Notes: generated from the letters alone by a model not told the origin. Positions 1 through 30,147 are shown, counted from the stretch's first letter. The stretch is 30,232 nucleotides of DNA from Herpetosiphon sp. NSE202 (GCF_042688385.1 NZ_JBHUPY010000007.1:386110-416341); one strand, 5' to 3'. Translations and numbers: made by a program.

Positions 1-139
1 ATTTGTGGGATTGAACAGCTACGCCAAGCGTTTGCAAACCGCGATTCAAGCAGTATTGGCCAATGGGCCACACACGCCCGACCTTGGTGGCACAGCCACG
101 ACGGCTGAGGTGGTGCAAGCAGTGATTGACCAGTTTTGA
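1..139 (+). CDS. 3' end of an isocitrate/isopropylmalate/homoisocitrate dehydrogenase family gene (partial; frame 2, stop TGA 137-139)
   Basis: Translation of frame 2 is FVGLNSYAKRLQTAIQAVLANGPHTPDLGGTATTAEVVQAVIDQF*. The ...TPDLGG.ATT.E....AVI... C-terminus is typical of the beta-decarboxylating dehydrogenase family (LeuB/Icd/Hicdh). Its position directly upstream of a lysW-lysX cluster suggests homoisocitrate dehydrogenase. Confidence 0.5.
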   Translation, partial: FVGLNSYAKRLQTAIQAVLANGPHTPDLGGTATTAEVVQAVIDQF

Positions 140-458
140 TCCACGAAGAGCACGAAGAGGGTACGAAACCACGAAGAACGCGAAGAGCACGAAGAGGATG
201 AGGCTCTAGGCTTTTGGCTAGCGGAAGAATTAACTCCCCTCGCCCGCGTTCAGTGGGCGAGGGGCTGGGGGTGAGGGGAATTCTAGCTCCCTACCACTAC
301 CCTTGAAACCACGAAGAACGCGAAGAGCACGAAGATGATGAGGCTCTAGGCTTTTGGCTGTTGGCTAGCGGAAGAATTAACTCCCCTCGCCCGCGTTCAG
401 TGGGGGAGGGGCTGGGGGTGAGGGAATATCACCCCTAACTAATAAAGGATTACAAACA
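100..458. repeat. Composite intergenic repeat array. CACGAAGAR 9-mers, then a ~140-bp unit present twice in tandem (about 165-304 and 305-445). Each unit ends in a GC-rich hairpin element CCCCTCGCCCGCGTTCAGTGGGCGAGGGGCTGGGGGTGAGGG (236-278 and 383-427).
   Basis: Direct reading of the sequence. The second copy differs by a 7-bp internal duplication (gttggct) and a few substitutions; one substitution (C to G) breaks the hairpin stem. Confidence 0.8.
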
Positions 459-626
459 ATGAGCGCACAATGCCCAGAATGTGAAGGAACGATCGTGTTG
501 GCGGCAGATATTTTGGATGGCGAGATTGTGCCATGCCCCGATTGTGGCGCAGAACTCGAAGTCGTCAGCCTGAACCCAGTTGTTTTGGAATTAGCACCCG
601 AAGTCGAAGAAGACTGGGGCGAGTAA
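459..626 (+). CDS. lysW: Amino-group carrier protein LysW (55 aa). It is missing from the ORF track because it is under 60 aa.
   Basis: ATG at 459 translates to [55 protein letters not shown]. It has an N-terminal CxxC...CxxC zinc ribbon and an acidic C-terminal tail ending EDWGE, the hallmark of LysW/ArgW. It lies 7 nt upstream of lysX. Confidence 0.85.
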
Positions 627-633
627 GGGAGTT

Positions 634-1503
634 ATGGCAATGCGTGTGGGTATGTTATGTTCCCGAATTCGGGTTGAAGAAAAGCTGCTGATCAATGAAT
701 TTGAGCGGCGCAATGTCCAATTTGAACGAATTGACGATGATCAGACATGGTTTGATTTGAATGCTTTACAAGCTAATCGTCAAGTGCGCGCGCAATTTCC
801 TGATGTGATTATTGAGCGTTCGTTGCACCATGGTCGGGCCTTGTACACCCTCAAAACCTTGAACGATGCTGGCATTCCAACGGTCAACAATTATAACGTG
901 GCCTTGACCTGTGGCGATAAATTTTTGACGACCCAAGCCCTGTTGCGCAACGGCGTACCATCGCCGCGCTGTTTGCTGGCCTACACCCAAGAATCGGCGC
1001 TCGAAGCGATCGAAAGTTTGGGCTATCCGGTGGTGTTGAAGCCAGTTATTGGCTCGTGGGGTCGCTTGGTCTCGAAGATCAACGATCGCGAAGCAGCCGA
1101 AGCAGTGCTTGAACACCGCGACACCTTGGGCAATTATCAGCACGCAATTTTCTACATTCAAGAATATATCAACAAACCAGGTGGCCGCGATATTCGCGCT
1201 TTTGTGGTTGGTGATGAGTGCATCGCGGCGATTTATCGCACCAGCGGCCACTGGATCACCAATACTGCACGCGGCGGTGAGGCTTCCAATTGCCCAATTA
1301 CGCCAGCCTTGGCCGATATTTGCATCGGTGCGGCCAATGCGGTTGGTGGCGGCGTGGTTGCAATCGATGTTTTCGAAACAGCCGAAGGTCGCTATTTGGT
1401 CAACGAAGTTAATTACACCATGGAATTTCGCAACAGCATTAGCACAACTGGGGTGAACATTCCTGAACGCATTGTTGATTATGTGCTAGCTCAAGCGCAA
1501 TAG
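634..1503 (+). CDS. lysX: RimK-family ATP-grasp ligase LysX (alpha-aminoadipate--LysW ligase; alternatively the ArgX paralog)
   Basis: 289 aa. Shows the RimK/LysX pattern (IRVEEKLLI..., [22 protein letters not shown]-grasp core). Sits immediately after lysW and before lysY. Putative SD AAGGGA lies 6 nt upstream. Confidence 0.85.
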
Positions 1504-1533
1504 TTGGCGCGCTGTAGCCAAATTGAGGTTGTT

Positions 1534-2568
1534 ATGCTTTCAGTTTCGATCGTTGGTGGCTCTGGCTATGTCGGTGGTGAATTGCTGCGTTTATTGTTGG
1601 GGCATCCCCACGTCGAGGTGCGTCAGGTCACCAGCGAACGCTTAGCAGGCCAATATGTCTACAGCACCCACCCCAATTTGCGCGGGCGCAGCGAGTTGCG
1701 CTATAGCCCACAAAGCACGTTGGAGCCGTGTGATGTGTTAATTTTGGCCTTGCCGCATGGCTCTGCTGCCAAAAACATTGAGCATTATGCTGGCCTTGGC
1801 CAAGCAATCATCGATTGTTCAGCCGATTTCCGCTTGCGCGACCCAGAAGCCTATAGCCGTTGGTATGGAGAAAAACACCCAGCCCCGCACTGGCTTGAGC
1901 GCTTTGTCTATGGCTTACCGGAGCTGTATCGCGAGCAAATTCGCGCAACCCGCTATGTCAGCGGTGTGGGCTGTAATGCAACAGCGATTAACTTGGCCTT
2001 GTTGCCTTTAGTCAAGGCTGGATTAATTGATCAAACCAAGCCAGTGGTGGCTGAAGTCAAAGTTGGTTCGTCCGAGGCGGGCGCGGTTGCCAACGATGGC
2101 AGCCATCATGCCGAACGCTCAGGCGTGGTGCGCTCGTTTGCACCAGTCGGCCATCGCCACACCGCCGAAATTGTACAAGCGCATGGGCTTGAAAATGTGC
2201 ATATTTCGATCACGTCGGTGGAAATGGTGCGCGGTGCTTTAGCAACATGCCACGTTTTTACTCAAGGCTCAGTCAACGAACGCGATCTCTGGCGAGCCTA
2301 TCGGGCAGCCGCCGCCGAACAACCATTTTTGCGCATTGTTCATGATCGCACTGGCTTGCACCGCCATCCTGAGCCAAAAATCTTGGCTGGCAGCAATTAT
2401 GCCGATATTGGCTGGGCGCTCGATGAAACCACAGGCCGCGTAGTTGCGCTCTGCGCACTCGATAACTTGATGAAGGGTGCAGCCGGAGCCGCCATCCAAT
2501 GCTTGAATTTGATGCATGGCTTCGACGAAAGCGTAGGGCTTGAGTTTAGCGGCTTGCATCCGGTTTAA
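1534..2568 (+). CDS. lysY: [LysW]-aminoadipate 6-phosphate reductase LysY (ArgC-like)
   Basis: Rossmann N-terminus MLSVSIVGGSGYVGGELLRLL and catalytic Cys motif GCNATA, as in the ArgC/LysY family. The track ORF starts at 1504. ATG 1534 is preferred because GAGG lies 8 nt upstream and the Rossmann motif starts there. Confidence 0.8.
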   Translation: MLSVSIVGGSGYVGGELLRLLLGHPHVEVRQVTSERLAGQYVYSTHPNLRGRSELRYSPQSTLEPCDVLILALPHGSAAKNIEHYAGLGQAIIDCSADFRLRDPEAYSRWYGEKHPAPHWLERFVYGLPELYREQIRATRYVSGVGCNATAINLALLPLVKAGLIDQTKPVVAEVKVGSSEAGAVANDGSHHAERSGVVRSFAPVGHRHTAEIVQAHGLENVHISITSVEMVRGALATCHVFTQGSVNERDLWRAYRAAAAEQPFLRIVHDRTGLHRHPEPKILAGSNYADIGWALDETTGRVVALCALDNLMKGAAGAAIQCLNLMHGFDESVGLEFSGLHPV

Positions 2569-2862
2569 GAACATAGAACATAGAGCATAGAACATAGGGG
2601 TCGGGGGTCAGGGGCTGGGGATCGGTGGTCGGGGATCAGGGTTTCGAGGATACTAAGCTGGATTTTAACGCAGCGGCGCAGAGAGGGAGAATAATTATGA
2701 AGGATGAGAGATGAAGGGTGAAGGGATATGCTCTCCACATTGAGCTTGACGTGCTTCGTGCCCTTCGCGTGCTTCGTGGTTTCATTCTTGGGAATCTTTG
2801 CGTCCTTCGCGGTTCCTAGCCTTAGCGTGCTTCGTGCTCTTTGTGGATCAAAAAGGAACAAC
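2569..2862. repeat. Composite repeat insertion between lysY and lysZ. AACATAG x4 heptamers, then G-rich heptamers (GGGGTCGGGGGTCAGGGGCTGGGGATCGG...), then reverse-orientation CTTCGTG nonamer-type repeats.
   Basis: Direct reading. The same modules occur at 100-458, 12428-12781 and 29880-30232. The track lysZ ORF (2728..) has a spurious 45-aa N-terminal extension that translates these repeats. Confidence 0.8.
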
Positions 2863-3666
2863 ATGTTTGTGATAAAAATTGGCGGCGCGGCGGGCATTGA
2901 TTATAGCAATCTTTGCGCTGATATTGCCCAGCTTGCCGCCCAAGGCCAACCGATTGTGCTGTTTCATGGTGGTTCGGATGGAGCCAACACACTTGGCGAG
3001 CAACTTGGCCATCCGCCGCGCTTCATCACCTCGCCGTCGGGCCATACCAGCCGCCAAACTGATCGGCGCACGCTCGAAATTTTCATGATGGCGACAGCCT
3101 TGCTCAATCGCCAGCTGGTTGAGCACTTGCGGGGCTTGGGAGTCAACGCTTTCGGTTTATCGGGCCTCGATGGAGGCTTGCTGCAAGGCACCCGCAAAAC
3201 CAATGTTCGGGCGGTCGAAAACGGACGGGTGCGCGTGATTCGCGACGATTGGACAGGCAGCATCGACCAAGTTAATCGTGGATTATTGCAAATGTTGCTG
3301 AGCGCTGGCTATCTGCCAGTCATCGCACCATTGGCGGTCAGCGCTGCGGGCGAACCATTAAATATTGATGGAGATCGCGGCGCGGCCAGTGTGGCAGCTG
3401 CACTCGAAGCCGAAACCTTGTTGCTGCTAACCAATGTGAGTGGCTTATATCGTAATTTTCCCGACGAAAGCAGCTTAATCGCGCATTTGCCGCGCACAGA
3501 ATTAGCCCACGCCAGCGAAAAACTCGCCCAAGGCCGCATGAAGAAAAAATTGCTTGGAGCACAAACCGCGCTAGAGGCTGGCGTGCGCCGCGTGATTATC
3601 GGCGATGGCCGCAGCGAGCAACCAGTCAGCGCAGCGCTCGCAGGCAATGGAACAATCATCGAATAG
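2863..3666 (+). CDS. lysZ: [LysW]-aminoadipate kinase LysZ (ArgB-like amino-acid kinase)
   Basis: MFVIKIGGAAG... amino-acid-kinase N-terminus. SD AAAGGAA lies 6 nt upstream of ATG 2863. 267 aa. Confidence 0.8.
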   Translation: MFVIKIGGAAGIDYSNLCADIAQLAAQGQPIVLFHGGSDGANTLGEQLGHPPRFITSPSGHTSRQTDRRTLEIFMMATALLNRQLVEHLRGLGVNAFGLSGLDGGLLQGTRKTNVRAVENGRVRVIRDDWTGSIDQVNRGLLQMLLSAGYLPVIAPLAVSAAGEPLNIDGDRGAASVAAALEAETLLLLTNVSGLYRNFPDESSLIAHLPRTELAHASEKLAQGRMKKKLLGAQTALEAGVRRVIIGDGRSEQPVSAALAGNGTIIE

Positions 3667-3685
3667 GATTTGGCAGGAACAAACA

Positions 3686-4867
3686 ATGACTGAACAACAA
3701 CCTTTTGCCAGTTTGGAAGCTGCTCATAGCGCGGGCGTGTATGCCAAGCGCCCAATTACCTTGGTGCGCGGCAGCGGCGCAACCCTCTACGACGATCACG
3801 GTCTGGCCTATCTCGATTGTGGCTCAGGGATTGGGGTTGCCAACATTGGCCATTGCCATCCAACAGTGGTGCAGGCAATTGCCGAGCAAGTAGCAACCCT
3901 AACGGTTTGCCCAGAAGCCTTTCACAACGATCAACGCGCCTTGTTACAAGCCGAATTGGTGCAATTATTTCCTGCCGAATTTCAACGGGTATTTTTGTGC
4001 AATAGCGGCACCGAAGCCGTCGAAGCAGCCTTGAAATTTGCCCGCATGGCCACAGGCCGCACGGCAATCGTCGCAGCCATGCGAGGCTTTCATGGCCGTA
4101 CCTTTGGAGCCTTGAGCGCAACCTGGGAGAGCCATTATCGCGAGCCGTTTATGCCGCTCGTGCCCGATTTTAGTCATATTCCCTACAATAATATCGAGCG
4201 TTTGCAAAGCGCTATAACCGAACAAACCGCCGCCTTGATTATCGAAATTGTCCAAGGCGAAGGCGGAATTCGGCCTGCAACCGCCGAATTTTTGCAAGCA
4301 GCCCAAACAATTTGCCGCGAACGCGGAGCCTTGTTGATTCTCGATGAAGTGCAGACTGGCTTTGGCCGCACGGGGCGCATGTTTGCATTTGAACATGTTG
4401 GCTTGCAGCCTGATTTGGTCTGTTTGGCTAAGGCCTTGGGTGGCGGCATGCCAATGGGCGCGGTCGTGATCAACCAGCGAGTTGGCGAATTGGCGATTGG
4501 CACGCATGGCTCGACCTTTGGCGGCAATCCCTTGGCATGCGCGGCGGCGCGGGCTGCGCTCAGCGTGATTCGCACCGAACAATTGGTTGATCAAACTGCC
4601 GAAAAAGGTGCGTGGTTATTGGCTCAATTGCAAGCGATTCGTTCGCCCAGAATTCGCGAAGTGCGTGGCTTGGGCTTGATGATCGGCATTGAACTCAAGG
4701 AAAAAGTTGCGCCCTATCTGCAAAAATTAATGAACCAGCATCAGATTATTGCGCTGAATTCTGGCAGCAACGTGTTGCGCCTGCTCCCGCCGCTGGTCAT
4801 TTCGTGGCCAGAATTAGAACGCGTGGTGGCAACCCTGCGCAGCATGTTTGAGGAGCCAGCAGCATGA
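3686..4867 (+). CDS. lysJ: [LysW]-aminoadipate-semialdehyde/acetylornithine-type aminotransferase LysJ (class III PLP aminotransferase)
   Basis: Class-III aminotransferase motifs (GSGATLYDDHG, NSGTEAVEAALKFAR, DEVQTGFGRTG, the PLP-Lys region LAKALGGG). ATG 3686 has an AGGA SD. The track start 3605 would overlap lysZ by 60 nt. Confidence 0.8.
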   Translation: MTEQQPFASLEAAHSAGVYAKRPITLVRGSGATLYDDHGLAYLDCGSGIGVANIGHCHPTVVQAIAEQVATLTVCPEAFHNDQRALLQAELVQLFPAEFQRVFLCNSGTEAVEAALKFARMATGRTAIVAAMRGFHGRTFGALSATWESHYREPFMPLVPDFSHIPYNNIERLQSAITEQTAALIIEIVQGEGGIRPATAEFLQAAQTICRERGALLILDEVQTGFGRTGRMFAFEHVGLQPDLVCLAKALGGGMPMGAVVINQRVGELAIGTHGSTFGGNPLACAAARAALSVIRTEQLVDQTAEKGAWLLAQLQAIRSPRIREVRGLGLMIGIELKEKVAPYLQKLMNQHQIIALNSGSNVLRLLPPLVISWPELERVVATLRSMFEEPAA

Positions 4868-5919
4868 ACGATCAACAAGCTTTGCAATTAATTGAGGCCA
4901 TGGTGGCAACACCCAGCGTTTCTGGCGACGAGGCCGCGCTGGCCCAACTCTTGGTCGAGCAGATGCACCACGCTGGCTTTGATGCGCACGTTGATGCGGT
5001 TGGCAACGCAGTTGGGATGATTGGAGCTGCTGCTGAAACCGTCGTGCTGCTTGGGCATATGGATACTGTGCCAGGATATATTCCAGTTGAAGTGCGCGCT
5101 GGCGAGTTGTGGGGGCGCGGTTCAGTTGATGCCAAAGGCTCGTTAGCGACGTTTATTGCTGCTGCCGCCCGCGCTCATGCTGAGCAACGCTTGGCCTATC
5201 GGGTGATTGTGGTTGGCTGCGTCGAAGAAGAAATTGCATCATCCAGAGGTGCGCATTTTATAGCCCAAACCATGGCCGCGCCAACGTGGTGCATTGTCGG
5301 CGAGCCAAGCGGCGCAGACCGCCTAACCTTGGGCTACAAAGGCAATTTGCGGGCACAAATTCGCATCGACCAGGATGCAGCCCATTCGGCCCACGCCAGC
5401 CAGACCGCCGCCGAGCATGGCTGTGAATTGTGGAAAAGCATCGCCCAGCACGCCAATGAGTTTAACCAAGGCCGCGAGCGAGCCTTCGATCAGCTGCTAC
5501 CAAGCCTTGTGCGCATCGAATCTGGTGGCGATGGCCTGCGCGATTGGTGCGAGTTGCTGGTCAATGCCCGCTTGCCCTTGGATCTTGATCCGGCGGCCTA
5601 TACTGCGCTGCTGCAACAACTATTGCCCAATTATGCCCACTTGAACATTAGCGGCGCAACGCCTGCCTACAGTAGCGAGCGCACATCGAGCATAGCGCGG
5701 CGTTTTGGGCGAGTATTTCGCGCCAAAGGCCAGCAACCGCGCTATGTGCAAAAAACTGGCACCGCCGATATGAACGTGGTTGGGCCAGCCTGGGGTTGCC
5801 CTGTTGTTGCCTATGGCCCAGGCGATGCCGCGCTCGATCACACGCCACACGAGCGTTTGCCGTTGGCCGAGTATTTACAGGCGATTAACGTGTTGACCGC
5901 TGTCTTGAGCAACGAGTAA
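4864..5919 (+). CDS. lysK: [LysW]-lysine hydrolase LysK (ArgE/DapE-type M20 metallopeptidase)
   Basis: M20 motifs (HMDTV, GRGSVDAKG, EEE.SS.G). The start overlaps the lysJ stop in ATGA, which implies translational coupling. Confidence 0.75.
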   Translation: MNDQQALQLIEAMVATPSVSGDEAALAQLLVEQMHHAGFDAHVDAVGNAVGMIGAAAETVVLLGHMDTVPGYIPVEVRAGELWGRGSVDAKGSLATFIAAAARAHAEQRLAYRVIVVGCVEEEIASSRGAHFIAQTMAAPTWCIVGEPSGADRLTLGYKGNLRAQIRIDQDAAHSAHASQTAAEHGCELWKSIAQHANEFNQGRERAFDQLLPSLVRIESGGDGLRDWCELLVNARLPLDLDPAAYTALLQQLLPNYAHLNISGATPAYSSERTSSIARRFGRVFRAKGQQPRYVQKTGTADMNVVGPAWGCPVVAYGPGDAALDHTPHERLPLAEYLQAINVLTAVLSNE

Positions 5920-6279
5920 TTATTCTTGAATGAGCTCCAAACTATTGCCATCGGGATCAGCGACAATTGCCGCTTTGATGCCGCCCTCAGTTGGCGGAGC
6001 GACGATGGTGCCACCATGCTGCACAGTTTTTTCGAGCGCTCTGGCTAAATCGGGCACACACACGTGAAATTGCAAGCGGCTTTGTTCGGCCACAACTCCA
6101 GCAATCGCGTTTGGGCAAAGCAACAAAGGAATATTAACCAAAAAACCTTCATAAAAGGTATGTTCGCCATGCTTAACCTTGCGAAAATTGGTAAACAACA
6201 CAGCATTATAAAAGGCCGCCATTTGTTCAATATTGGTAGCAGCAAGCGTTAATTGGGTAAATGAAATTGGTGAATGCAT
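5920..6279 (-). CDS. VOC/glyoxalase-bleomycin-resistance family protein
   Basis: Start at MHSPISFTQLTLAATNIEQMAAFYNAVL... GAGGA SD 5 nt upstream on the minus strand. Size of about 120 aa and a beta-alpha-beta pattern typical of the VOC family. Convergent with lysK and abutting it. Confidence 0.6.
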   Translation of the reverse strand: MHSPISFTQLTLAATNIEQMAAFYNAVLFTNFRKVKHGEHTFYEGFLVNIPLLLCPNAIAGVVAEQSRLQFHVCVPDLARALEKTVQHGGTIVAPPTEGGIKAAIVADPDGNSLELIQE

Positions 6280-6474
6280 GTAAATCCTCATATAATTGTC
6301 TTTTGCTACTGCCCATGCTACCATAGGCCAAGCCCAAACCCGCTATGACAGCACTCCAGAACGACTTTTGCAGCAGCAAGTCTGATTATTTCTAGCCGCA
6401 TTAATTTCAAATAAACGCTATTTTTATTGTTTCGATTGCAGACCTAGAGTGGCAACGTATGTGGAGGATCGACG

Positions 6475-6846
6475 ATGTTTAAAGAGTTCAAGGAATTTGC
6501 TTTCAAAGGCAACGTGCTCGATTTGGCAATCGGTGTAATTATTGGGGCTGCCTTTGGCAAAATTGTCACGGCCTTGGTCGATAATATTTTGATGCCATTA
6601 ATTGCTGCTTTCTTTGCTAAACCTAACGTTGCTGAGTTGCAATTTATGGTTGGAAAAACTCCAATTGTCTATGGCGTATTTGTCCAATCAGTCATCGACT
6701 TTTTGCTCGTCGCTATCGTCTTATTTGGGGTTGTCAAAGCAATTAACATTACCCGTCGCAAGCAAGAAGCCGAAGCGCCAGCCGCGCCACCACCAAGCGA
6801 AGAAGTGCTCTTGCTGCGCGAAATTCGCGATAGCTTGCAAAAGTAA
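6475..6846 (+). CDS. mscL: Large-conductance mechanosensitive channel MscL
   Basis: MFKEFKEFAFKGNVLDLAIGVIIGAAFGKIVTALVDNILMPLI... is near-canonical MscL. 123 aa with two TM segments and a charged C-terminus. Confidence 0.9.
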   Translation: MFKEFKEFAFKGNVLDLAIGVIIGAAFGKIVTALVDNILMPLIAAFFAKPNVAELQFMVGKTPIVYGVFVQSVIDFLLVAIVLFGVVKAINITRRKQEAEAPAAPPPSEEVLLLREIRDSLQK

Positions 6847-7105
6847 GATTCCCCTCACCCCAACCCCTCTCCCGTCCAACGGGCGAGGGGCTTTCATGCC
6901 GTGGTTCTACCTCAAGGCGTGGTAAAACGTGGGATAGGGGCTGCTTACGAGGGTCGGTTGTTAAGATCCCCTCACCCCAACCCCTCTCCCGTCCAACGGG
7001 CGAGGGGCTTTTGGTTGTGTGGGTTTGGCATGATTGGTGGTGAACATTGGTGCTCCCCCTCGCCCGCGTTTTCGTGGGAGAGGGGGCTGGGGGGTGAGGG
7101 AATCT
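6847..7105. repeat. MITE-like cluster of three GC-rich hairpin elements. Two reverse copies (6848-6890, 6967-7009) and one forward copy (7055-7100) that faces the second reverse copy.
   Basis: Reverse copies read CCCCTCACCCCAACCCCTCTCCCGTCCAACGGGCGAGGGG. The forward copy reads CCCCTCGCCCGCGTTTTCGTGGGAGAGGGGGCTGGGGGGTGAGGG. Each contains a 10-bp stem hairpin. The cluster lies between convergent mscL and the lipoprotein gene, so it is positioned to act as a bidirectional terminator. Confidence 0.8.
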
Positions 7106-8203
7106 TTATGGCTCAAGCTCAATCTGCCAAATTGCCCCTTCATGCAACAGTAAAAACTCAGTCTGATTCAACGCCTGCAAATCAGTAACCAAGCGTGGTT
7201 GGCCAGCAGCATCATTAATTGGATAGACCTGGGTTGGCGACCAATAGACCAAACTATTGCTATCCAAGGCCCGCACCAAAACCCCATCGCGATACCACAC
7301 CAATGGCTCGACCCCCAAATTGGTGGCTTGAATCGAATTCAGGCTTGGCTCGTAGATCCGAAAATCATCGCCCAGATAATAGGCTAAGGCTCCGCGCTTG
7401 TTCCAGAGCATTCTAGGTATGCTCGTGCCACGCTGGCTTTGATCGAGCAGCTGAATTTGATTGGTTTGCAGATTATAGAGGTGTAACTCTAAAGCAGCTT
7501 GGTCGCGCACTTGCACCAACAAAGCCAGTTGATCGCGATTAGGGCTAAGTTGCAAGCCACCAGCTACCAACTGCCGCTGGGGCAGGCGAATAATCACTTG
7601 CTCTTTGCTCGTACCACCAACTTGCATAATCCGCAGGTCGTTATCACCCGCTGCATAATACAAGGCACTTTGGGTCATCAAGGCTGCTTGCACCAAGCCA
7701 TTGGTCGAAGTCAGCACGTGCAATGCTTGGCCACTAAATGGCTCGATCGCTTGCAGCAGATCAGGCTCCTGTTGCGAACGCCACAAAAGCAAAGCCCCAT
7801 CACTTGACCAACTCAGCGCTTGGCCTTGATAGCGACGACTAAGCTCGATAAAATTCAAACCTGGCGCATGCAATTCAAACTGATCTTGGCTAATCGATTG
7901 GGTAATGAGCCATTGTTGGCTTGGCGCAAGCGGGCCAAATTGAGCACGAATAACGCCATTCGCCGCCACCAACAATTGATCGCTAGGGCTAAGTGCAGTG
8001 GTCGCGCTGGCGGTTGGCTTGAGCAACGGCGTTACCGTCGCAGGATTGCTGCTCGGCGTTGGACGAGCGGTGGCCCGCACCACGAAGCTTGGCGTTGGCC
8101 GCAACTCCAAGGTCGGAATAACCACAGCGGTTGGTTGCTGCTGGGCCAAATCACACCCATACAACAGGCCAATTAGTACCAAAACAATATAGAATCGTTT
8201 CAT
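7106..8203 (-). CDS. Lipoprotein with Pro/Thr-rich linker and TolB-like beta-propeller repeats
   Basis: N-terminus MKRFYIVLVLIGLLYGCDL is a lipobox with Cys. A PT-rich low-complexity linker follows. The rest has repeated LSxDGxxLx motifs typical of WD40-like/TolB propellers. Confidence 0.6.
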   Translation of the reverse strand: MKRFYIVLVLIGLLYGCDLAQQQPTAVVIPTLELRPTPSFVVRATARPTPSSNPATVTPLLKPTASATTALSPSDQLLVAANGVIRAQFGPLAPSQQWLITQSISQDQFELHAPGLNFIELSRRYQGQALSWSSDGALLLWRSQQEPDLLQAIEPFSGQALHVLTSTNGLVQAALMTQSALYYAAGDNDLRIMQVGGTSKEQVIIRLPQRQLVAGGLQLSPNRDQLALLVQVRDQAALELHLYNLQTNQIQLLDQSQRGTSIPRMLWNKRGALAYYLGDDFRIYEPSLNSIQATNLGVEPLVWYRDGVLVRALDSNSLVYWSPTQVYPINDAAGQPRLVTDLQALNQTEFLLLHEGAIWQIELEP

Positions 8204-8221
8204 ATCACCATGCTATAATAA

Positions 8222-8872
8222 ATGCTGGAAACGGTTATCAGCAACAGGCAGCCTATGACGAATGATCCAATCATTGCGACCGCACCACGACTTATAATTC
8301 GTCGCTGGCAACGGGTAGATTACCAAACCATGGATCGCTGGCCACCTTTCACCGAACCTTTAAGCAGCATTTGGAACTTACCAGATCGGGTGACGGTTGG
8401 CGGCGATTGGATGAACGACATCCGGCGAACCTATGCGATTGTTCTGCGTGATAATACCCTAGTTGGGCGAATTACGTTACGCAACATTGATTCGGCTAGT
8501 GGCTCGGCACGGCTTGGGATTACAATTGGCGCACCCTATGTGAGCCAAGGCTATGGCACCGAAGGCTTAGCCGCCTTTCTCCAAGCATTTTTCAGCACCC
8601 TTGGCTTTCAAACCATGGTGCTCGATGTGGCTTCAGTTAACGAACGAGCTGTACGCTGCTATCGGCGGCTCGGCTTCCAATATAATGGTCATCATTGGCG
8701 TGATGCTGGCTGGCGTTTTATGCAAACGCTCGATCAAGCCACCCGCGAACGCATCGCCCCCTTTATCAAGGAAGGCCGTCACGGGGTGTGGGTACAATTT
8801 TACGACATGACGCTCGCCCGCAGTGATTGGCAAGCGGCTCAACATCGGTCAGTTATCCACGTTAATCAATAA
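8222..8872 (+). CDS. GNAT family N-acetyltransferase (RimJ/RimL-like). Start may be ATG 8255.
   Basis: Contains VGRITLRNIDSASGSARLGITIGAPYVSQGYGTEGLAAFLQAFF...ERAVRCYRRLGF, which covers GNAT motifs A and B. TATAAT at 8213-8218 directly abuts ATG 8222, so ATG 8255 (MTNDP) is the more plausible start. Confidence 0.7.
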   Translation: MLETVISNRQPMTNDPIIATAPRLIIRRWQRVDYQTMDRWPPFTEPLSSIWNLPDRVTVGGDWMNDIRRTYAIVLRDNTLVGRITLRNIDSASGSARLGITIGAPYVSQGYGTEGLAAFLQAFFSTLGFQTMVLDVASVNERAVRCYRRLGFQYNGHHWRDAGWRFMQTLDQATRERIAPFIKEGRHGVWVQFYDMTLARSDWQAAQHRSVIHVNQ

Positions 8873-8885
8873 AAGAGGAAGCAGT

Positions 8886-9431
8886 ATGTCGCTGATTGCA
8901 GGAAACTTGGCAGTTGTTCAAAAACTACTCGACGGTGCGCAAATGGCGTGGGGCATTTATGGCGGAGCCGCAGCTCACTTCTATGGCAGCCGTCGCCCAA
9001 TTAATGATATTGATATTGTGGTGCCAGCCAACATGCTGAGCGAAATTGCCCGCTTGTTGCAGCAAGGCCAAAAGGCAGTGCAGTACGATGGTGGGCGCAT
9101 TTTATGGCGTGGGATTATTCTGCAAGAGGATCTGACGATTCGCCAAAATGGTGCTGTTTACCCGTTTGTGCTCGATCAACCAATGATCGAACGCCTACAA
9201 CGCAAGCCATTGCTTGGCTCACGGGTGCTCTTTTTGGCTCCCGAAGATATTTTGGTCCACAAATTAATTTTGTATCGTGGTTCAGACCAACAACGCTTCG
9301 ATATTGTCGATTGCGAAGGCATTATCAAGCGCCAACAACTCGACCTTGAATATCTGAGCCAACGCCTGCAAAGCAGCAACGCCACTGCCCTCGTTACCCC
9401 ACGCATCGCCGAAATGGGCGTAACGCTGTAA
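8886..9431 (+). CDS. Nucleotidyltransferase-fold protein, Lnu/ANT-like (lincosamide/aminoglycoside nucleotidyltransferase-like)
   Basis: MAWGIYGGAAAHFYGSRRPINDIDIVV resembles the GG/GS...DIDI signature of minimal nucleotidyltransferases (Lnu(A) has WLDGGWGVDVL...HRDIDIDF). 181 aa. SD AAGAGGAAG is upstream of ATG 8886. The track start 8823 overlaps the GNAT gene. Confidence 0.55.
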   Translation: MSLIAGNLAVVQKLLDGAQMAWGIYGGAAAHFYGSRRPINDIDIVVPANMLSEIARLLQQGQKAVQYDGGRILWRGIILQEDLTIRQNGAVYPFVLDQPMIERLQRKPLLGSRVLFLAPEDILVHKLILYRGSDQQRFDIVDCEGIIKRQQLDLEYLSQRLQSSNATALVTPRIAEMGVTL

Positions 9432-9435
9432 GTTT

Positions 9436-9473
9436 AAAGGCATTGTGGGTGCATTGCTCAGAATGCCTTTTTG
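9436..9473 (+). terminator. Hairpin plus T-run after the nucleotidyltransferase gene
   Basis: AAAGGCATT...AATGCCTTTTTG. 9-bp stem, internal loop, and a T-tract. Confidence 0.5.
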
Positions 9474-9496
9474 ATTGAACCCTGACCGATAGAACA

Positions 9497-10258
9497 TTGC
9501 TTATGCTAAAAACAACCCAACCTCAACATCCGATCGCCTGGACTTTAGGCAATTGCTTGCTCTTTTGCGGCATGTATTTGTTGTTGTATGTTGGCGGCAT
9601 GTACGCCGACGATTTTTACAATCAACAAGCAGCGCGCGGCGATAGCACGCTGCCAATCGCTGCGCCCATCATTGCAACTGCCGAGCCTGAACTTGGCGCC
9701 TTTCAAGCCCCCCAATTAAACGCCAATCCGCTCAGCGACCAACCTAATGCCAATGTTCCAAGCGAACATTCAAGCATCAGCCGGATTCAAATTCCACGGA
9801 TCGAGGTTGATCAGAAGGTGATCGAGGTTGGTTGGGAGTTAATCGATGGCGTGGCAACATGGCAGGTTGCAAAATACGCCGTTGGCCATCATCAAGGCAG
9901 CGCCAACCCCGGCGAAGCAAGTAATATCGTCTTGGCGGGCCATGTTGGCGGCTCGGCGCCCGTGTTTGATCGCTTGATTGAAACCCAGCCAGGCGACCAA
10001 ATTGTGCTCTATAGCAATGGTCAGCAATATCTGTATGTGGTGCAATCGAATGAGCGTGTGCAAGAAGTTGGCATTTCGGCAGAACAACGCCTGACCAATG
10101 CTGCCTATATGAACCCAACTCCTGCTGAAACCATTACCTTGATTACCTGTTGGCCGCCAACTGGCCCCAATGCCTTCGATCAGCGGATTATTGTGCGAGC
10201 CGTTCCCTACACCAGCGCTTCGGAGCAACCAGCAGGTAGCAATTGGCAGATGCGCTAA
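9497..10258 (+). CDS. Sortase family transpeptidase (N-terminal TM anchor; class E/F-like)
   Basis: VLAGHVGG (catalytic His region), TLITCWP (TLXTC active-site Cys motif) and a conserved Arg region. One N-terminal TM segment. TTG start in the track; ATG at 9503. Confidence 0.8.
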   Translation: MLMLKTTQPQHPIAWTLGNCLLFCGMYLLLYVGGMYADDFYNQQAARGDSTLPIAAPIIATAEPELGAFQAPQLNANPLSDQPNANVPSEHSSISRIQIPRIEVDQKVIEVGWELIDGVATWQVAKYAVGHHQGSANPGEASNIVLAGHVGGSAPVFDRLIETQPGDQIVLYSNGQQYLYVVQSNERVQEVGISAEQRLTNAAYMNPTPAETITLITCWPPTGPNAFDQRIIVRAVPYTSASEQPAGSNWQMR

Positions 10259-10340
10259 ATCAAGCTGCAACAAAATTTTATAGCCTATCGTCAGATGAAC
10301 AGCTATTGACAATTCTGTGTCATCACGAAGGGGCTACACC

Positions 10341-10859
10341 ATGACAAAACGAACTTTAGGCTTGCTATTGATTGGAGCAGGGATTATTGCCCTCTTCAGC
10401 AACATTGGGAATGGCTTGTTTGGCCGCGACCACGATTATCGTGAGTACGAAGTGCGTCAAGCAATGCATTTTCAAATGCATGAAGATTTTGCCCAGCCCG
10501 AGGTCGAATTTAACGAAGGAATGGCTGATTTTCAGGCCGAGATGAGTGATATTCAAGCAGAAATCAGCGAGGCTGTAAACTCACATTGGCAAGATAATGC
10601 TGCCGAATTCCACGAAGAAATGGCCAACCTGCGCGCCGAAATGCAAGATGCGCAAGCTGAAATGTATGAGGCCCAAGCTGAAATGCATAGCGCAATGCCA
10701 GCCAACGGCTTTGCAGATTCACGCTTCGAGCACGGGCCACGCCATCGCGGTGCACCATTCGGCTTCTTGCTGTTTCCCTTATTAATTGGTGGTGGGATAT
10801 TCTTGTTGGTTCGTCGCCGCCGCATGGTTGTGCGCCGCCACCAAGTCCAGCACTTCTAA
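10341..10859 (+). CDS. Hypothetical bitopic membrane protein with AQAEM-type acidic coiled repeats
   Basis: N-terminal TM (LGLLLIGAGIIALF). A central region carries repeats FQAEMSDIQAEISEA / ANLRAEMQDAQAEMYEAQAEMHSA. C-terminal TM plus poly-Arg (FGFLLFPLLIGGGIFLLVRRRRMVVRR). Track start is GTG 10317; ATG 10341 has GAAGGGG upstream. Confidence 0.55.
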   Translation: MTKRTLGLLLIGAGIIALFSNIGNGLFGRDHDYREYEVRQAMHFQMHEDFAQPEVEFNEGMADFQAEMSDIQAEISEAVNSHWQDNAAEFHEEMANLRAEMQDAQAEMYEAQAEMHSAMPANGFADSRFEHGPRHRGAPFGFLLFPLLIGGGIFLLVRRRRMVVRRHQVQHF

Positions 10860-10879
10860 TTAGCGCTTCGAGTCTATTC

Positions 10880-10916
10880 AAAAGCCCCTGCAATGACGGT
10901 TGCAGGGGCTTTTTTT
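10880..10916. terminator. Bidirectional rho-independent terminator between convergent genes
   Basis: AAAAGCCCCTGCAA-tgacgg-TTGCAGGGGCTTTTTTTG. 11 to 14-bp perfect stem flanked by A- and T-tracts. Confidence 0.75.
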
Positions 10917-10948
10917 GCGCTTAGAAAATAATTGATCAGGCTGGCAAA

Positions 10949-12346
10949 TTAGCCAAGCACGCGGTTAAGGTTAGCTTCGAGTTTTTGGCGTAAATCACGG
11001 CGCACTTGCTCGCCAGTTGCAGGCGTGGTCAGTAAACCAGCCACAATCCCCAAAATAAATGAGCGCAGGCCGGTGCGTGCGCGGCGGCCTTTGCGGCCAA
11101 CCTCGGTGGTTACTTCACCAGTTTTATGGGCGATTGTTTGGGCTGCTTGCTGGGTCGTTTCGCCAACGATATGCGCAGTTTCTTTGGCGCGGCCACCAAC
11201 AACCGAGGCAGCATCTTTAGCGCGCTCGCCAACAACCGAGGCGGTTTCTTTGGCCCGCTCGCCAACTACAGTTGCAACATCCTTGGCCCGTTCGCCAACC
11301 ACTGAGGCCGTTTCTTTGGCGCGGCCACCAACAACCGAGGCTGCGCCTGCAACTGCTGGAATAACCGTTGCGCTTACATCTTGGGCCTTGGCGCTCACGG
11401 TTTGGGCAACCGAACGCAAGGCATCGGGCGCATGCTCACGAGCTTCTTTAGCGCGTTCGCTGGTTGTTGCCAAAAATTCTTGCACAATGCCACTCAAGCG
11501 TTGCACCAAATCGCTGGCTTGATCACGAGCATCAGCGCCTTTGCTGCTCGCCACATCAACCGCGCGATGGCGTAAATCGTCTGCTTGTTCAAGTACAGTT
11601 TCGCTGCTGCTGCTCAAACGATCGCGTACTTCATTCAAAATGGTTTTAGCCTTATCAGCCAAGGTTTCGCCTTGATCCATCGCCTGTTCGCGCACATCGG
11701 CCAAACGGCTACGGGCATCGGCGCTTTTGCTGCTTGCAGCTTTCACCGTCTGATGGCGCAAGTCGTCGGCTTGCTCAAGCACGGTTTCGCTGGTGCTGCT
11801 CAAACGATCGCGCACTTCATTCAAGATATTTTTGGCTTTATCGGCTAAGGTTTCACCTTGATCAACTGCTTGATCGCGTACATCGGCCAAACGGCTTTTG
11901 GTTTGGTCGCCCAAATCGTTGGCCCGATCGCGGCTGGCGGTAGCAACCGCAGCTAAGCCAGCAGTTGCAGCGCTCAACAACGAACTACCTTTATCGCGAC
12001 CTTGAGCGGCTTTTTTGCCAAGTTGGTCAACAGCATGTTCAACTTGATCGCGGCCAGTTTCCAAGCTCGCATTCAAGCGTTGATTGGCGTTCTTGCCAGC
12101 TTTGCGCAATTTCTTTTGCTCGCGTTTCAGTTCTTTGCGGGCTTGTTTGCTGAGGCTATGCAAATAGCTATTGGCATCGGCAGCCCGATGTTCAACTTGA
12201 TCGCGGAGATTTTCGGTGAGCAAGGCGACTTTTTCGCCCAAGCTGGTTGGATGATTGCGGCGGCTGCGTGCGCCCAATACCCCACCAATCACACCACCAG
12301 CAATCAGTGCGGCAGTCAATAATGGTTGTTCTTTTTGCTCATTCAT
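10949..12346 (-). CDS. YtxH-domain-anchored LEA/apolipoprotein-like repeat protein
   Basis: Start at MNEQKEQ with an AAAGGAG SD. The track start 12427 is a GTG inside the repeat flank. N-terminus LLTAALIAGGVIGGVLGARSRR and C-terminus FILGIVAGLLTTPATGEQVRRDLRQKLEA are both YtxH-like (TM plus G.ELR) motifs. The interior has five 11-aa repeats (ASVVGERAKET) and a duplicated block of about 62 aa (ETLADKAK.ILNEVRDRLSS.SETVLEQADDLRH...). It is highly charged with many Ala, Asp and Arg, and is predicted helical. Confidence 0.6.
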   Translation of the reverse strand: MNEQKEQPLLTAALIAGGVIGGVLGARSRRNHPTSLGEKVALLTENLRDQVEHRAADANSYLHSLSKQARKELKREQKKLRKAGKNANQRLNASLETGRDQVEHAVDQLGKKAAQGRDKGSSLLSAATAGLAAVATASRDRANDLGDQTKSRLADVRDQAVDQGETLADKAKNILNEVRDRLSSTSETVLEQADDLRHQTVKAASSKSADARSRLADVREQAMDQGETLADKAKTILNEVRDRLSSSSETVLEQADDLRHRAVDVASSKGADARDQASDLVQRLSGIVQEFLATTSERAKEAREHAPDALRSVAQTVSAKAQDVSATVIPAVAGAASVVGGRAKETASVVGERAKDVATVVGERAKETASVVGERAKDAASVVGGRAKETAHIVGETTQQAAQTIAHKTGEVTTEVGRKGRRARTGLRSFILGIVAGLLTTPATGEQVRRDLRQKLEANLNRVLG

Positions 12347-12427
12347 AATCAATAACTCCTTTGCTCTACGATTCGAGCACGTATCTGCCAAACCTATAGC
12401 AAACCCTATACCAAGCGTTTGATCCAC

Positions 12428-12781
12428 GAGGGGTCAGGGGCTAGGGATCAGTTACGGAAACCACAATGAGGGATCAGGGGTCAGAGGTTAGGGATCAGTT
12501 ATGGAAACCGCGAAGGACACGAAGATCGCGAAGTTATTTTTTGCCTCAGATTGATCCACGAAGCACACGAAGAGCACGAAGAACCGGAACCACGAAGGAC
12601 GCTAAGATCACGAAGTTATTTTTTTGCCCAGATTTCCCTGATTATATTTACAATAACCCATCGCCCAAAGCCAATAGTCAAGAGCCTTTCATCCCTCATC
12701 CTTCATAATTCGTCCTTAAAAGAAAGAGGATCGAGCTACTACTAGCCCAATCCCCTATGCTCTACTCTATGTTCTATGTTC
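12428..12781. repeat. Composite repeat array. G-rich heptamers with an AGGGATCAGTTAYGGAAACC duplication, then CACGAAGNR nonamers, then reverse AACATAG heptamers.
   Basis: Direct reading. The module order mirrors 2569-2862 in the opposite orientation. Track ORFs 12466..12708 and 12551..12745 lie entirely within the repeats and are likely spurious. Confidence 0.8.
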
Positions 12782-19217: not shown

Positions 19218-19246
19218 CCCCCTCTCCTGCATTTAGTAGGAGAGGG
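19218..19246 (+). terminator. Degenerate copy of the GC-rich hairpin element, placed as a terminator after the Wzy_C/TPR gene
   Basis: CCCCTCTCCT-gcatttagt-AGGAGAGGGG. 10-bp stem, 20 nt after the stop codon. Confidence 0.5.
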
Positions 19247-21950: not shown

Positions 21951-22104
21951 AACAATCTTGAGCCAATAATTCCAGTTTCAGCGCAATACCTGCTTTCAAT
22001 CCTGAGTCATGCGTGGTAAATTCACCCTTGGCAGTTACGAGCCAATTGCGTATACTCATACGACATTCCGCCAAACGCAACCTCTACCAAGAAAGGGTTT
22101 CCGC

Positions 22105-25214: not shown

Positions 25215-25246
25215 TCCCTCGCCCGCTCTAGGTGGCGGGCGAGGGA
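25215..25246. terminator. Bidirectional terminator built from a minimal copy of the GC-rich hairpin element
   Basis: TCCCTCGCCCGC-tctaggtg-GCGGGCGAGGGA. 12-bp perfect stem between convergent genes. Confidence 0.65.
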
Positions 25247-29923: not shown

Positions 29924-30064
29924 ATGATCCCCTCACCCCAACCCCTCTCCCGTGGCGCGGGCGAGGGGCTTTCATCCCGTGGTTCTTGCACAATACGTTG
30001 GTAAAAACCGGTGCTCCCCTCGCCCGCGTTCAGTGGGAGAGGGGCTGGGGGTGAGGGCATGATC
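29924..30064. repeat. MITE-like element. Two copies of the GC-rich hairpin module in inverted orientation (29928-29970 reverse, 30015-30057 forward), bounded by CATGATC at both ends.
   Basis: The left arm reads CATGATCCCCTCACCCCAACCCCTCTCCCGTGGCGCGGGCGAGGGGCTTTCATCCCGTGGTTC and the right arm is its imperfect reverse complement. The organisation matches 6967-7100. Confidence 0.75.
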
Positions 30065-30147
30065 CTGGTTGCCAATCCAACGCACCAGTACACATAGAGC
30101 ATAGAACATAATCCTAACAATCTGTGAAAATCTGTGGCGAAAAATCG

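What the first reader, a model, noticed from the sequence alone, without database searches (positions are those of the whole stretch)
1..5919. Complete LysW amino-group-carrier cluster (lysW-X-Y / Z-J-K) with a hidden 55-aa lysW
The window opens with a complete LysW-mediated biosynthetic cluster. It starts with the 3' end of a LeuB/Icd/Hicdh-family gene. Then come the 55-aa lysW at 459-626 (which the 60-aa cutoff missed), lysX (ATP-grasp ligase), lysY (ArgC-like reductase), lysZ (kinase), lysJ (class-III aminotransferase) and lysK (M20 hydrolase). LysW has the two CxxC zinc-ribbon pairs and the acidic C-terminal EDWGE tail, onto which LysX ligates alpha-aminoadipate. This is the Thermus/Sulfolobus-type alpha-aminoadipate route to lysine, or its ArgW variant for ornithine. 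Knowing which one this organism uses says whether it makes lysine by AAA or by DAP. The overlaps lysW-7nt-lysX and lysJ-ATGA-lysK suggest translational coupling.
Basis: partly seen in the sequence, partly recalled or inferred. Interest (0 to 1): 0.6.

Follow-up and report, generated by a model that had tools for sequence, protein, structure and literature searches.

The report
Ordinary LysW lysine-biosynthesis operon, Herpetosiphon
The window begins inside a normal, already-annotated ten-gene operon that makes lysine by the Thermus-type alpha-aminoadipate route, using the small carrier protein LysW, in a Herpetosiphon (Chloroflexota) genome; it is real and intact but not new.

Summary
Six intact genes, lysW-lysX-lysY-lysZ-lysJ-lysK, follow the 3' end of a homoisocitrate dehydrogenase gene. 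Five reach curated NCBIfam cut-offs for LysW-pathway or ArgC models; LysJ passes only the broader argD subfamily model. The closest solved relatives are the Thermus thermophilus lysine enzymes; LysK is slightly closer to an unnamed 4q7a deacetylase. The source is a Herpetosiphon species, about 93% DNA identity to H. giganteus GCA_016907925.1. There the same genes, including the 55-aa lysW, are already called and LysX is already named.

In that genome and in H. llansteffanensis, homocitrate synthase, both homoaconitase subunits and homoisocitrate dehydrogenase lie directly upstream. The window therefore holds the distal 60% of a ten-gene AAA operon. LysX carries the published aminoadipate-specific motif F-I-T-NS, not ArgX (I-Y-V-GF) or bifunctional (Y-I-T-NA).

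Four longest-ORF starts need correcting: lysX 640, lysY 1534, lysZ 2863, lysJ 3686. lysW-lysX is a 13-nt spacer, not an overlap; the lysJ/lysK ATGA overlap is real. Two roughly 300-nt intra-operon spacers hold Herpetosiphon-specific, hypervariable repeats. Whether a DAP pathway coexists was not tested. Interest is low.

The parts
1..139 (+). 3' end (last 45 codons plus TGA) of the homoisocitrate dehydrogenase gene (hicdh)
   Evidence: Weak Iso_dh/HICDH-family hits on the fragment. It aligns to the end of the 331-aa Iso_dh gene of H. giganteus L081 (8490-9485). The closest solved relative of that gene is T. thermophilus homoisocitrate dehydrogenase 1x0l at 354 bits, against 277 for ICDH and 228 or less for IPMDH.
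140..458 (.). 319-nt hicdh-lysW spacer filled with modular repeats: CACGAAGAG 9-mer arrays and a 12-bp GC hairpin followed by GGGCTGGGGGTGAGGG. The roughly 140-nt unit is tandemly duplicated (165-300 and 305-445).
   Evidence: RNA fold z = -3.7, with no U-tail after the hairpins. No Rfam match. Length differs between species: 319 nt here, 334 in L081, about 220 in L001.
459..626 (+). lysW, the 55-aa amino-group carrier protein: a zinc ribbon with CPEC and CPDC, and an acidic tail ending EDWGE. The SD sequence AAGGA lies 9 nt upstream.
   Evidence: TIGR01206 71.7 bits (cut-off 53.2) and PF21344 78.7 bits. Aligns end to end with T. kodakarensis and T. thermophilus LysW (5k2m_E, 3wwl_A). Compared with H. 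giganteus there are 4 synonymous and 1 non-synonymous codon differences.
640..1503 (+). lysX, the ATP-grasp [LysW]-L-2-aminoadipate ligase (287 aa; the in-frame ATG at 634 is the less likely start)
   Evidence: TIGR02144 336.6 bits (cut-off 275.6); Pfam LysX_preATP_grasp plus RimK. 52% identical to T. thermophilus LysX 3vpd. Specificity motif F-I-T-NS. 286 of 287 residues identical to NCBI 'lysine biosynthesis protein LysX [Herpetosiphon giganteus]'. Synonymous to non-synonymous differences 34:1.
1534..2568 (+). lysY, the ArgC-like [LysW]-aminoadipyl-6-phosphate reductase (344 aa)
   Evidence: TIGR01850 359.8 bits. Best solved relatives are T. thermophilus LysY 2ozp/5eio at about 400 bits, against 195 or less for genuine ArgC. 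Catalytic Cys is followed by Asn (GCNAT), as in TtLysY C148-N149 (PMC12041015). Synonymous to non-synonymous 57:10.
2569..2862 (.). 294-nt lysY-lysZ spacer made of short tandem repeats: AGAACAT x4, GGGGTCG-type x5, and inverted CACGAAG 9-mer arrays. The spurious N-terminal 45 codons of the longest lysZ ORF lie here.
   Evidence: Inverted copies of the 134-157 and 165-194 modules occur at 2830-2853 and 2754-2783 (pairs I1, I2, I6). The spacer is 468 nt in H. giganteus. Fold z = -1.6.
2863..3666 (+). lysZ, the [LysW]-aminoadipate kinase (267 aa)
   Evidence: NF010659 418 bits (cut-off 223), with homology beginning at residue 46 of the long ORF. Aligns residues 1-266 to T. thermophilus LysZ 3u6u/3wwm at 274 bits, against 94 or less for ArgB. 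Called as 267 aa in L081.
3686..4867 (+). lysJ, the class-III [LysW]-aminoadipate semialdehyde aminotransferase (393 aa)
   Evidence: Best NCBIfam model is LysJ_Th_th at 518 bits, below its 700 cut-off; it passes argD subfamily TIGR00707. Best solved relative is T. thermophilus LysJ 1vef at 449 bits; the next best scores 323. Called as 393 aa in L081.
4864..5919 (+). lysK, the M20 [LysW]-lysine hydrolase (351 aa). Its start overlaps the lysJ stop (ATGA).
   Evidence: NF003367 441.6 bits (cut-off 363). Solved relatives are 4q7a (274 bits, N-acetyl-ornithine/N-acetyl-lysine deacetylase) and T. thermophilus LysK 5xoy (247 bits). The same 4-nt overlap is present in L081.

Best explanation
Window 1-5919 is the distal part of a single co-directional ten-gene operon, hcs-hacA-hacB-hicdh-lysW-lysX-lysY-lysZ-lysJ-lysK, of a Herpetosiphon species. 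It encodes the Thermus-type alpha-aminoadipate (AAA) route to lysine.

The mechanism below is inferred from orthology to the biochemically and structurally characterised T. thermophilus system; it was not shown for this organism.
1. Homocitrate synthase, homoaconitase and homoisocitrate dehydrogenase extend 2-oxoglutarate to 2-oxoadipate.
2. An unlinked aminotransferase (LysN) gives AAA.
3. LysX uses ATP to ligate the alpha-amino group of AAA to the gamma-carboxyl of the C-terminal Glu55 of LysW.
4. The acidic LysW tail then carries the intermediate from enzyme to enzyme. LysZ phosphorylates the side-chain carboxyl, LysY reduces it to the semialdehyde, and LysJ transaminates it to LysW-lysine.
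5. LysK hydrolyses the isopeptide bond, releasing lysine and free LysW.

LysX is predicted to be aminoadipate-specific, so the cluster serves lysine synthesis, not ornithine or arginine synthesis.
For: - Family assignments reach curated cut-offs for LysW, LysX, LysZ and LysK, and Pfam finds Zn_ribbon_LysW and LysX_preATP_grasp.
- The closest solved structures are the T. thermophilus lysine enzymes, well above the Arg paralogues: LysY about 400 bits vs 195 or less for ArgC; LysZ 274 vs 94 for ArgB; LysX 294 vs 177 for S. tokodaii ArgX. LysK is the exception: its top hit, 4q7a, is named only as a deacetylase, and T. thermophilus LysK 5xoy is second.
- LysW aligns end to end with the crystallised LysW proteins and keeps four Cys and the EDWGE tail.
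- The LysX motif is F190-I200-T211-N267-S268, i.e. F-I-T-NS. This is the type experimentally tied to strict AAA use (PMC12998189; mapping). The T. kodakarensis control reads Y-I-T-NA, as published.
- Upstream genes in H. llansteffanensis and H. giganteus are homocitrate synthase (about 404 bits to solved HCS vs 137 or less to IPMS), HacA, HacB (NF010629 245.6, cut-off 229) and HICDH (354 bits to TtHICDH).
- The same gene order recurs in most of 80 loci from Chloroflexota, NC10, Gemmatimonadota and Planctomycetota.
- There is strong synonymous excess against H. giganteus in all six genes: 4:1, 34:1, 57:10, 28:9, 65:9 and 42:15.
- NCBI and JGI already name the orthologues LysX or [LysW]-L-2-aminoadipate ligase.
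- Herpetosiphon peptidoglycan uses L-ornithine rather than DAP (PMC3368417), so there is no cell-wall requirement for a DAP pathway.
Against: - There is no biochemistry or genetics for any Chloroflexota LysW system in the papers I could search.
- LysJ does not reach the NCBIfam LysJ equivalog cut-off (518 vs 700), and L001 homocitrate synthase is just under TIGR02146 (408.3 vs 413.55).
- lysN is not in the cluster.
- I could not survey the genome for DAP genes or for canonical argJ/B/C/D. Coexistence of a second lysine route, or use of this cluster for ornithine as well, is therefore not formally excluded.
- T. thermophilus LysZ and LysY are known to accept LysW-Glu (PMC12998189).
- The two roughly 300-nt repeat-filled spacers mean that transcription as a single unit is assumed, not shown.
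Confidence: 0.93

Rival explanations
1. This is a bifunctional LysW system of the Thermococcus/Sulfolobus type. The same LysW, LysZ, LysY, LysJ and LysK also process LysW-glutamate and so make ornithine (for arginine and for the L-ornithine peptidoglycan of Herpetosiphon) as well as lysine.
For: T. thermophilus LysZ and LysY retain about 60% and 15-20% activity on LysW-Glu derivatives (PMC12998189). Herpetosiphon needs L-ornithine for its wall. I did not verify that canonical arg genes exist in this genome.
Against: LysX controls entry into the pathway, and here it has the strict AAA-type motif F-I-T-NS, not Y-I-T-NA (bifunctional) or I-Y-V-GF (ArgX). There is no second LysX/ArgX paralogue in the cluster, unlike the Thermomicrobiales loci L073 and L080. 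All enzymes are closest to the monofunctional Thermus set.
Confidence: 0.05
2. This is an ArgW/ArgX-type cluster dedicated to ornithine/arginine biosynthesis, as in haloarchaea.
For: LysY, LysZ, LysJ and LysK also match ArgC, ArgB, ArgD and ArgE family models, because the families are homologous.
Against: The cluster is physically contiguous with homocitrate synthase, homoaconitase and homoisocitrate dehydrogenase, which are useless for arginine synthesis. The LysX motif is not I-Y-V-GF. The lysine-specific equivalog models score highest: NF010659 [LysW]-aminoadipate kinase and NF003367 [LysW]-lysine hydrolase.
Confidence: 0.01
3. This is an amino-group-carrier-protein cassette for a secondary metabolite (the Streptomyces AmCP type), not primary lysine synthesis. 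Herpetosiphon is rich in natural-product clusters.
For: Herpetosiphon species are known producers of secondary metabolites (titles).
Against: The set of AAA-forming and LysW enzymes is complete, including the LysK release step, and no tailoring, NRPS or PKS genes are adjacent. The same operon is conserved across most of 80 loci from several phyla. Purifying selection is strong.
Confidence: 0.01

Closest known systems
Thermus thermophilus LysW-mediated AAA lysine pathway (hcs, lysT/U, hicdh, lysW, lysX, lysY, lysZ, lysJ, lysK; Nishiyama laboratory)
   Same: All ten enzyme types are present. The closest solved relative of each protein tested is the Thermus protein or, for HCS and LysW, ties with it; LysK is slightly closer to 4q7a. 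LysX is 52% identical. The LysW C-terminal EDWGE and the four zinc-ligand cysteines are identical. The LysX specificity motif F-I-T-NS and the LysY Cys-Asn are identical.
   Different: In Herpetosiphon nine of the ten pathway steps are colinear in one operon, and only lysN is elsewhere. From my own knowledge, not tested here, hicdh, lysJ and lysK are not all in the main cluster in Thermus. The Herpetosiphon operon is interrupted by two roughly 300-nt repeat-filled spacers. No leader peptide or riboswitch was detected upstream of hcs in L001, whereas Thermus uses leader-peptide attenuation (own knowledge).
Annotated lys operon of Herpetosiphon giganteus GCA_016907925.1 (contig JAFBCZ010000035.1) and H. 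llansteffanensis CA052B (NZ_PUBZ01000002.1)
   Same: Gene order and gene lengths are the same. DNA identity is 91-93%. LysX is 286/287 identical and LysW 54/55. Both LysW and LysX are already called, and LysX is already named.
   Different: The intra-operon spacers differ in length and in repeat content (hicdh-lysW 319 vs 334 vs about 220 nt; lysY-lysZ 294 vs 468 nt). The window's exact proteins are not on record, so it is another strain or species.
Sulfolobus LysW/LysX + ArgX and Thermococcus kodakarensis bifunctional LysX/ArgX systems
   Same: The carrier-protein chemistry and the enzyme families are the same.
   Different: Those systems make ornithine as well, through an ArgX paralogue (motif I-Y-V-GF) or a promiscuous LysX (Y-I-T-NA). 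The Herpetosiphon LysX has neither motif, and there is no second ligase in the cluster.

Membership tests
LysW (AmCP)-mediated AAA lysine pathway, Thermus type | Small carrier protein LysW: an N-terminal zinc ribbon and an acidic C-terminal tail ending in Glu (EDWGE) | tested here: met
   TIGR01206 71.7 bits (cut-off 53.2); PF21344 78.7 bits; CPEC, CPDC and ...EEDWGE; full-length alignment to 3wwl_A and 5k2m_E
LysW (AmCP)-mediated AAA lysine pathway, Thermus type | LysX ATP-grasp ligase with the AAA-type substrate motif (TtLysX F182, I192, T203, N258, S259) | tested here: met
   TIGR02144 336.6 bits (cut-off 275.6); motif F-I-T-NS at residues 190, 200, 211, 267 and 268; the control TkLysX reads Y-I-T-NA
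LysW (AmCP)-mediated AAA lysine pathway, Thermus type | LysZ kinase and LysY reductase of the LysW-dependent clades, not ArgB/ArgC | tested here: met
   LysZ: NF010659 418 bits (cut-off 223); 274 bits to TtLysZ vs 94 or less to ArgB. LysY: about 400 bits to TtLysY vs 195 or less to ArgC, with the Cys-Asn active-site pair
LysW (AmCP)-mediated AAA lysine pathway, Thermus type | LysJ aminotransferase orthologue | tested here: inconclusive
   The best NCBIfam model is LysJ_Th_th, but at 518 bits it is below the 700 cut-off. The best solved relative is TtLysJ 1vef at 449 bits, with the next at 323. Gene position in the operon supports orthology
LysW (AmCP)-mediated AAA lysine pathway, Thermus type | LysK M20 hydrolase that releases lysine from LysW | tested here: met
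   NF003367 441.6 bits (cut-off 363); 247 bits to TtLysK 5xoy
LysW (AmCP)-mediated AAA lysine pathway, Thermus type | Genetic linkage to the AAA-forming enzymes (homocitrate synthase, homoaconitase, homoisocitrate dehydrogenase) | tested here: met
   The 3' end of hicdh lies in the window. The full hcs-hacA-hacB-hicdh set lies directly upstream in L001 and L081, and the HCS and HICDH identities were confirmed against solved structures
LysW (AmCP)-mediated AAA lysine pathway, Thermus type | AAA aminotransferase (LysN) present in the genome; DAP pathway absent | not tested
   Neither is in the window or in the 20-kb L081 locus. Only indirect support exists: L-ornithine-type peptidoglycan
LysW (AmCP)-mediated AAA lysine pathway, Thermus type | Demonstrated formation of LysW-gamma-AAA and lysine auxotrophy of mutants | not testable with these tools
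   This needs biochemistry or genetics
ArgW/ArgX (LysW-dependent ornithine/arginine) pathway | Glutamate-specific ligase motif I-Y-V-GF, and a context of arg genes rather than AAA genes | tested here: not met
   The motif is F-I-T-NS and the context is hcs/hacAB/hicdh
Bifunctional LysX/ArgX system (Thermococcales type) | Ligase motif Y-I-T-NA | tested here: not met
   The motif is F-I-T-NS, and TkLysX in the same alignment reads Y-I-T-NA

The most novel reading that the evidence does not exclude
Despite its Thermus-like LysX motif, the Herpetosiphon LysW operon might also supply L-ornithine for the organism's ornithine-type peptidoglycan. That would make it a bacterial bifunctional Lys/Orn carrier-protein pathway, and the hypervariable repeat-filled spacers might uncouple expression of lysWXY from lysZJK. 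Neither point was excluded, because the genome's canonical arg genes and the operon's transcripts were not examined.
Probability: 0.05. Interest if true: 0.45.

Novelty: already known. Interest (0 to 1): 0.1.

Why it matters
It indicates that this Herpetosiphon makes lysine from 2-oxoglutarate through alpha-aminoadipate on a protein carrier, as Thermus and Deinococcus do. That fits a cell wall that uses ornithine rather than diaminopimelate. Standard annotation pipelines already report this for sister genomes, so the practical value is limited to correct gene boundaries and a clean answer to the lysine-versus-ornithine question.

Tried and rejected
- Exact-protein look-ups of the window's LysX (from ATG 634), LysW, LysK and LysZ found nothing. 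The window's genome is not on record, so context came from H. giganteus and H. llansteffanensis.
- Rfam found no match in the window at gathering thresholds. In L001 it gave only sub-threshold miRNA/snoRNA-like hits on a repeat hairpin. There is no lysine riboswitch.
- The promoter and terminator consensus scan of 1-7200 was at background: 8 vs 5.2 expected and 8 vs 10.7 expected. It says nothing about transcription units.
- Literature searches for LysW or aminoadipate in Chloroflexi or Herpetosiphon found no dedicated study. The 'lysW' of the lysine-riboswitch paper is an unrelated transporter.
- The ArgX, bifunctional and secondary-metabolite AmCP readings were considered and rejected; see the rival explanations.
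- The longest-ORF starts for lysX, lysY, lysZ and lysJ were rejected in favour of 640, 1534, 2863 and 3686.

Full report
**1. The observation**

NCBIfam gives these assignments:

| Gene | Best model | Bits | Cut-off |
|---|---|---|---|
| lysW (459-626) | TIGR01206 LysW | 71.7 | 53.2 |
| lysX | TIGR02144 | 336.6 | 275.6 |
| lysY | TIGR01850 argC | 359.8 | 233.6 |
| lysZ | NF010659 [LysW]-aminoadipate kinase | 418 | 223 |
| lysJ | T. thermophilus LysJ model | 518 | 700 (not reached) |
| lysK | NF003367 [LysW]-lysine hydrolase | 441.6 | 363 |

- LysJ passes the argD subfamily model.
- Pfam adds Zn_ribbon_LysW (78.7 bits) and LysX_preATP_grasp.
- LysW has CPEC and CPDC and ends in EEDWGE. It aligns end to end with crystallised LysW from T. 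kodakarensis, T. thermophilus and Sulfolobus.

**2. Gene boundaries**

- Homology to the family models begins at residue 46 of the longest lysZ ORF and at about residue 36 of the longest lysJ ORF.
- Shine-Dalgarno sequences sit at the right distance from ATG 640 (lysX), 1534 (lysY), 2863 (lysZ) and 3686 (lysJ).
- Gene calls in the 93%-identical H. giganteus contig give exactly these lengths: 287, 344, 267 and 393 aa. They also give a 55-aa lysW.
- lysW and lysX are separated by a 13-nt spacer that carries the lysX SD sequence. They do not overlap.
- The lysJ/lysK ATGA overlap is real and conserved.

**3. Source and public status**

- The nearest species representative is Herpetosiphon llansteffanensis, with 98% LysX identity and about 91% DNA identity.
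- A protein 286/287 identical to the window's LysX is recorded as 'lysine biosynthesis protein LysX [Herpetosiphon giganteus]'.
- Its contig, L081 (GCA_016907925.1), is about 93% identical to the window over 1-11,388.
- The window's own exact proteins are not on record. It is therefore another Herpetosiphon strain or species.

**4. Lysine or ornithine?**

Four lines of evidence point to lysine.

- *Upstream genes.* In both sister genomes the genes immediately upstream are homocitrate synthase, the homoaconitase large and small subunits, and homoisocitrate dehydrogenase.
  - The homocitrate synthase scores about 404 bits to solved homocitrate synthases and 137 or less to isopropylmalate synthases.
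  - The dehydrogenase scores 354 bits to T. thermophilus HICDH, 277 to ICDH and 228 or less to IPMDH.
  - The window's first 139 nt align to the end of that gene.
- *LysX specificity motif.* Shi et al. (FEBS J 2025, PMC12998189) define a five-residue specificity motif: F-I-T-NS for AAA-specific LysX, I-Y-V-GF for ArgX, and Y-I-T-NA for bifunctional LysX/ArgX.
  - The window's LysX reads F190-I200-T211-N267-S268.
  - In a MAFFT alignment, all 80 bacterial orthologues and TtLysX read F-I-T-NS.
  - The T. kodakarensis control reads Y-I-T-NA, as published.
- *Similarity to solved structures.* The Thermus lysine enzymes rank far above the Arg paralogues.
  - The exception is LysK, whose top hit is 4q7a, a chain named only as an N-acetyl-ornithine/N-acetyl-lysine deacetylase. 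T. thermophilus LysK 5xoy comes second.
- *LysY active site.* LysY has the Cys-Asn pair described for TtLysY, rather than the Cys-aromatic pair of ArgC.

**5. Are the genes functional?**

Against H. giganteus, synonymous codon differences greatly outnumber non-synonymous ones:

| Gene | Synonymous : non-synonymous |
|---|---|
| lysW | 4:1 |
| lysX | 34:1 |
| lysY | 57:10 |
| lysZ | 28:9 |
| lysJ | 65:9 |
| lysK | 42:15 |

The order hcs-hacA-hacB-hicdh-lysW-lysX-lysY(-lysZ-lysJ-lysK) recurs across Chloroflexia, Anaerolineae, Caldilineae, NC10, Gemmatimonadota and Planctomycetota loci.

**6. Mechanism**

The mechanism is inferred from orthology to the Thermus system and was not shown here.

- LysX ligates AAA to the gamma-carboxyl of the C-terminal Glu of LysW.
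- LysZ, LysY and LysJ then convert the tethered AAA to tethered lysine.
- LysK releases lysine.
- Herpetosiphon peptidoglycan contains L-ornithine rather than DAP (PMC3368417). That fits an organism with no structural need for the DAP route.
- I did not test whether DAP genes are absent.

**7. Surroundings**

Downstream genes are unrelated to lysine synthesis:
- a convergent glyoxalase-like gene that abuts the lysK stop;
- mscL, a GNAT acetyltransferase and a sortase;
- a repeat-rich YtxH/apolipoprotein-like protein;
- an SMC-like ATPase, a Wzy_C/TPR membrane protein and a GT4 transferase;
- a NUDIX-MazG protein, ABC-2 transporters and an SDR.

The two large spacers inside the operon (140-458 and 2569-2862) are built from short tandem modules, some shared with other intergenic regions of the window:
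- 9-mer CACGAAGAG arrays;
- 7-mers AGAACAT and GGGGTCG;
- a 12-bp GC hairpin followed by GGGCTGGGGGTGAGGG.

What is known about these modules:
- They are far above chance: 22 matches vs 0.21 expected, and 3 vs 0.01.
- Among the 82 fetched loci they occur only in the three Herpetosiphon loci.
- The spacers built from them differ in length between sister species.
- They give no Rfam match.
- The first spacer folds stably (z = -3.7), but its hairpins lack U-tails on the operon strand.
- Their effect on operon expression is unknown.

**8. Verdict**

This is a real, intact but ordinary Thermus-type AAA/LysW lysine operon. Its orthologues are already called in the closest public genomes, and LysX is already named there. 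Novelty: already known. Interest: low.

Noticed in passing
window 140-458, 2569-2862, 6850-7105, 12429-12790, 19220-19242, 25216-25238, 29928-30232: Intergenic regions carry a family of modular short repeats: 9-mer CACGAAGAG arrays, 7-mers AGAACAT and GGGGTCG, and a 12-bp GC hairpin CCCCTCGCCCGC/GUGGGCGAGGGG followed by GGGCTGGGGGTGAGGG. They occur in both orientations and are far above chance. Among the 82 fetched loci they occur only in Herpetosiphon loci, and their length is hypervariable between sister species. Inverted copies flank lysWXY (134-157 vs 2830-2853). They resemble cyanobacterial STRR-type heptamer repeats (own knowledge). Their function is unknown.
   Followed up: partly
window 30147-30232: A perfect 9.6-copy tandem array of GTTCTTCGT (the reverse complement of the CACGAAGAA unit) runs off the 3' end of the window.
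   Followed up: no
L001 6900-7141 (H. llansteffanensis): The contig ends inside the lysY-lysZ repeat spacer, which looks like an assembly break at the repeats. The region contains a long near-perfect hairpin that draws sub-threshold Rfam miRNA/snoRNA hits.
   Followed up: no
L005, L008, L009, L013, L015 (Chloroflexus MAGs): Two tandem lysW copies (65-73% identical to the Herpetosiphon LysW) sit between hicdh and lysX.
   Followed up: no
L073 and L080 (Thermomicrobiales MAGs): A second LysX paralogue (43-44% identity) lies next to the orthologue. Its specificity-motif positions read F-S-T-GL, which matches none of the three published types. In L080 it follows lysW-lysK. It could be an ArgX-like ligase or a ligase with a new substrate.
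   Followed up: partly
L063 (Chloroflexi MAG Baikal-deep-G121): A second, distant LysY/LysZ-like pair (33-35% identity), probably canonical argC-argB, sits directly after lysK.
   Followed up: no
window 10949-12427 (-): A 492-aa ORF with internal 33/66-nt and 186-nt tandem DNA repeats has weak Apolipoprotein and YtxH Pfam hits. It is a repetitive helical protein of unclear role.
   Followed up: no
window 5917-5922: The lysK stop codon (5917-5919) directly abuts the stop codon of a convergent glyoxalase-like gene (5920-6324, minus strand; called as 119 aa in L081). This leaves no room for a terminator between them.
   Followed up: no
window 7106-8203 (-), 10317-10859 (+), 22009-22776 (+): ORFs of 365, 180 and 255 aa have no Pfam match. 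The first two are also called as genes with no Pfam family in the H. giganteus contig.
   Followed up: no
L048: A contig labelled 'uncultured Methanosarcinales archaeon' carries a bacterial-type lysW-X-Y...Z-J cluster, with LysX 65% identical to Herpetosiphon LysX and the F-I-T-NS motif. This may be a mis-binned contig or a horizontal transfer.
   Followed up: no
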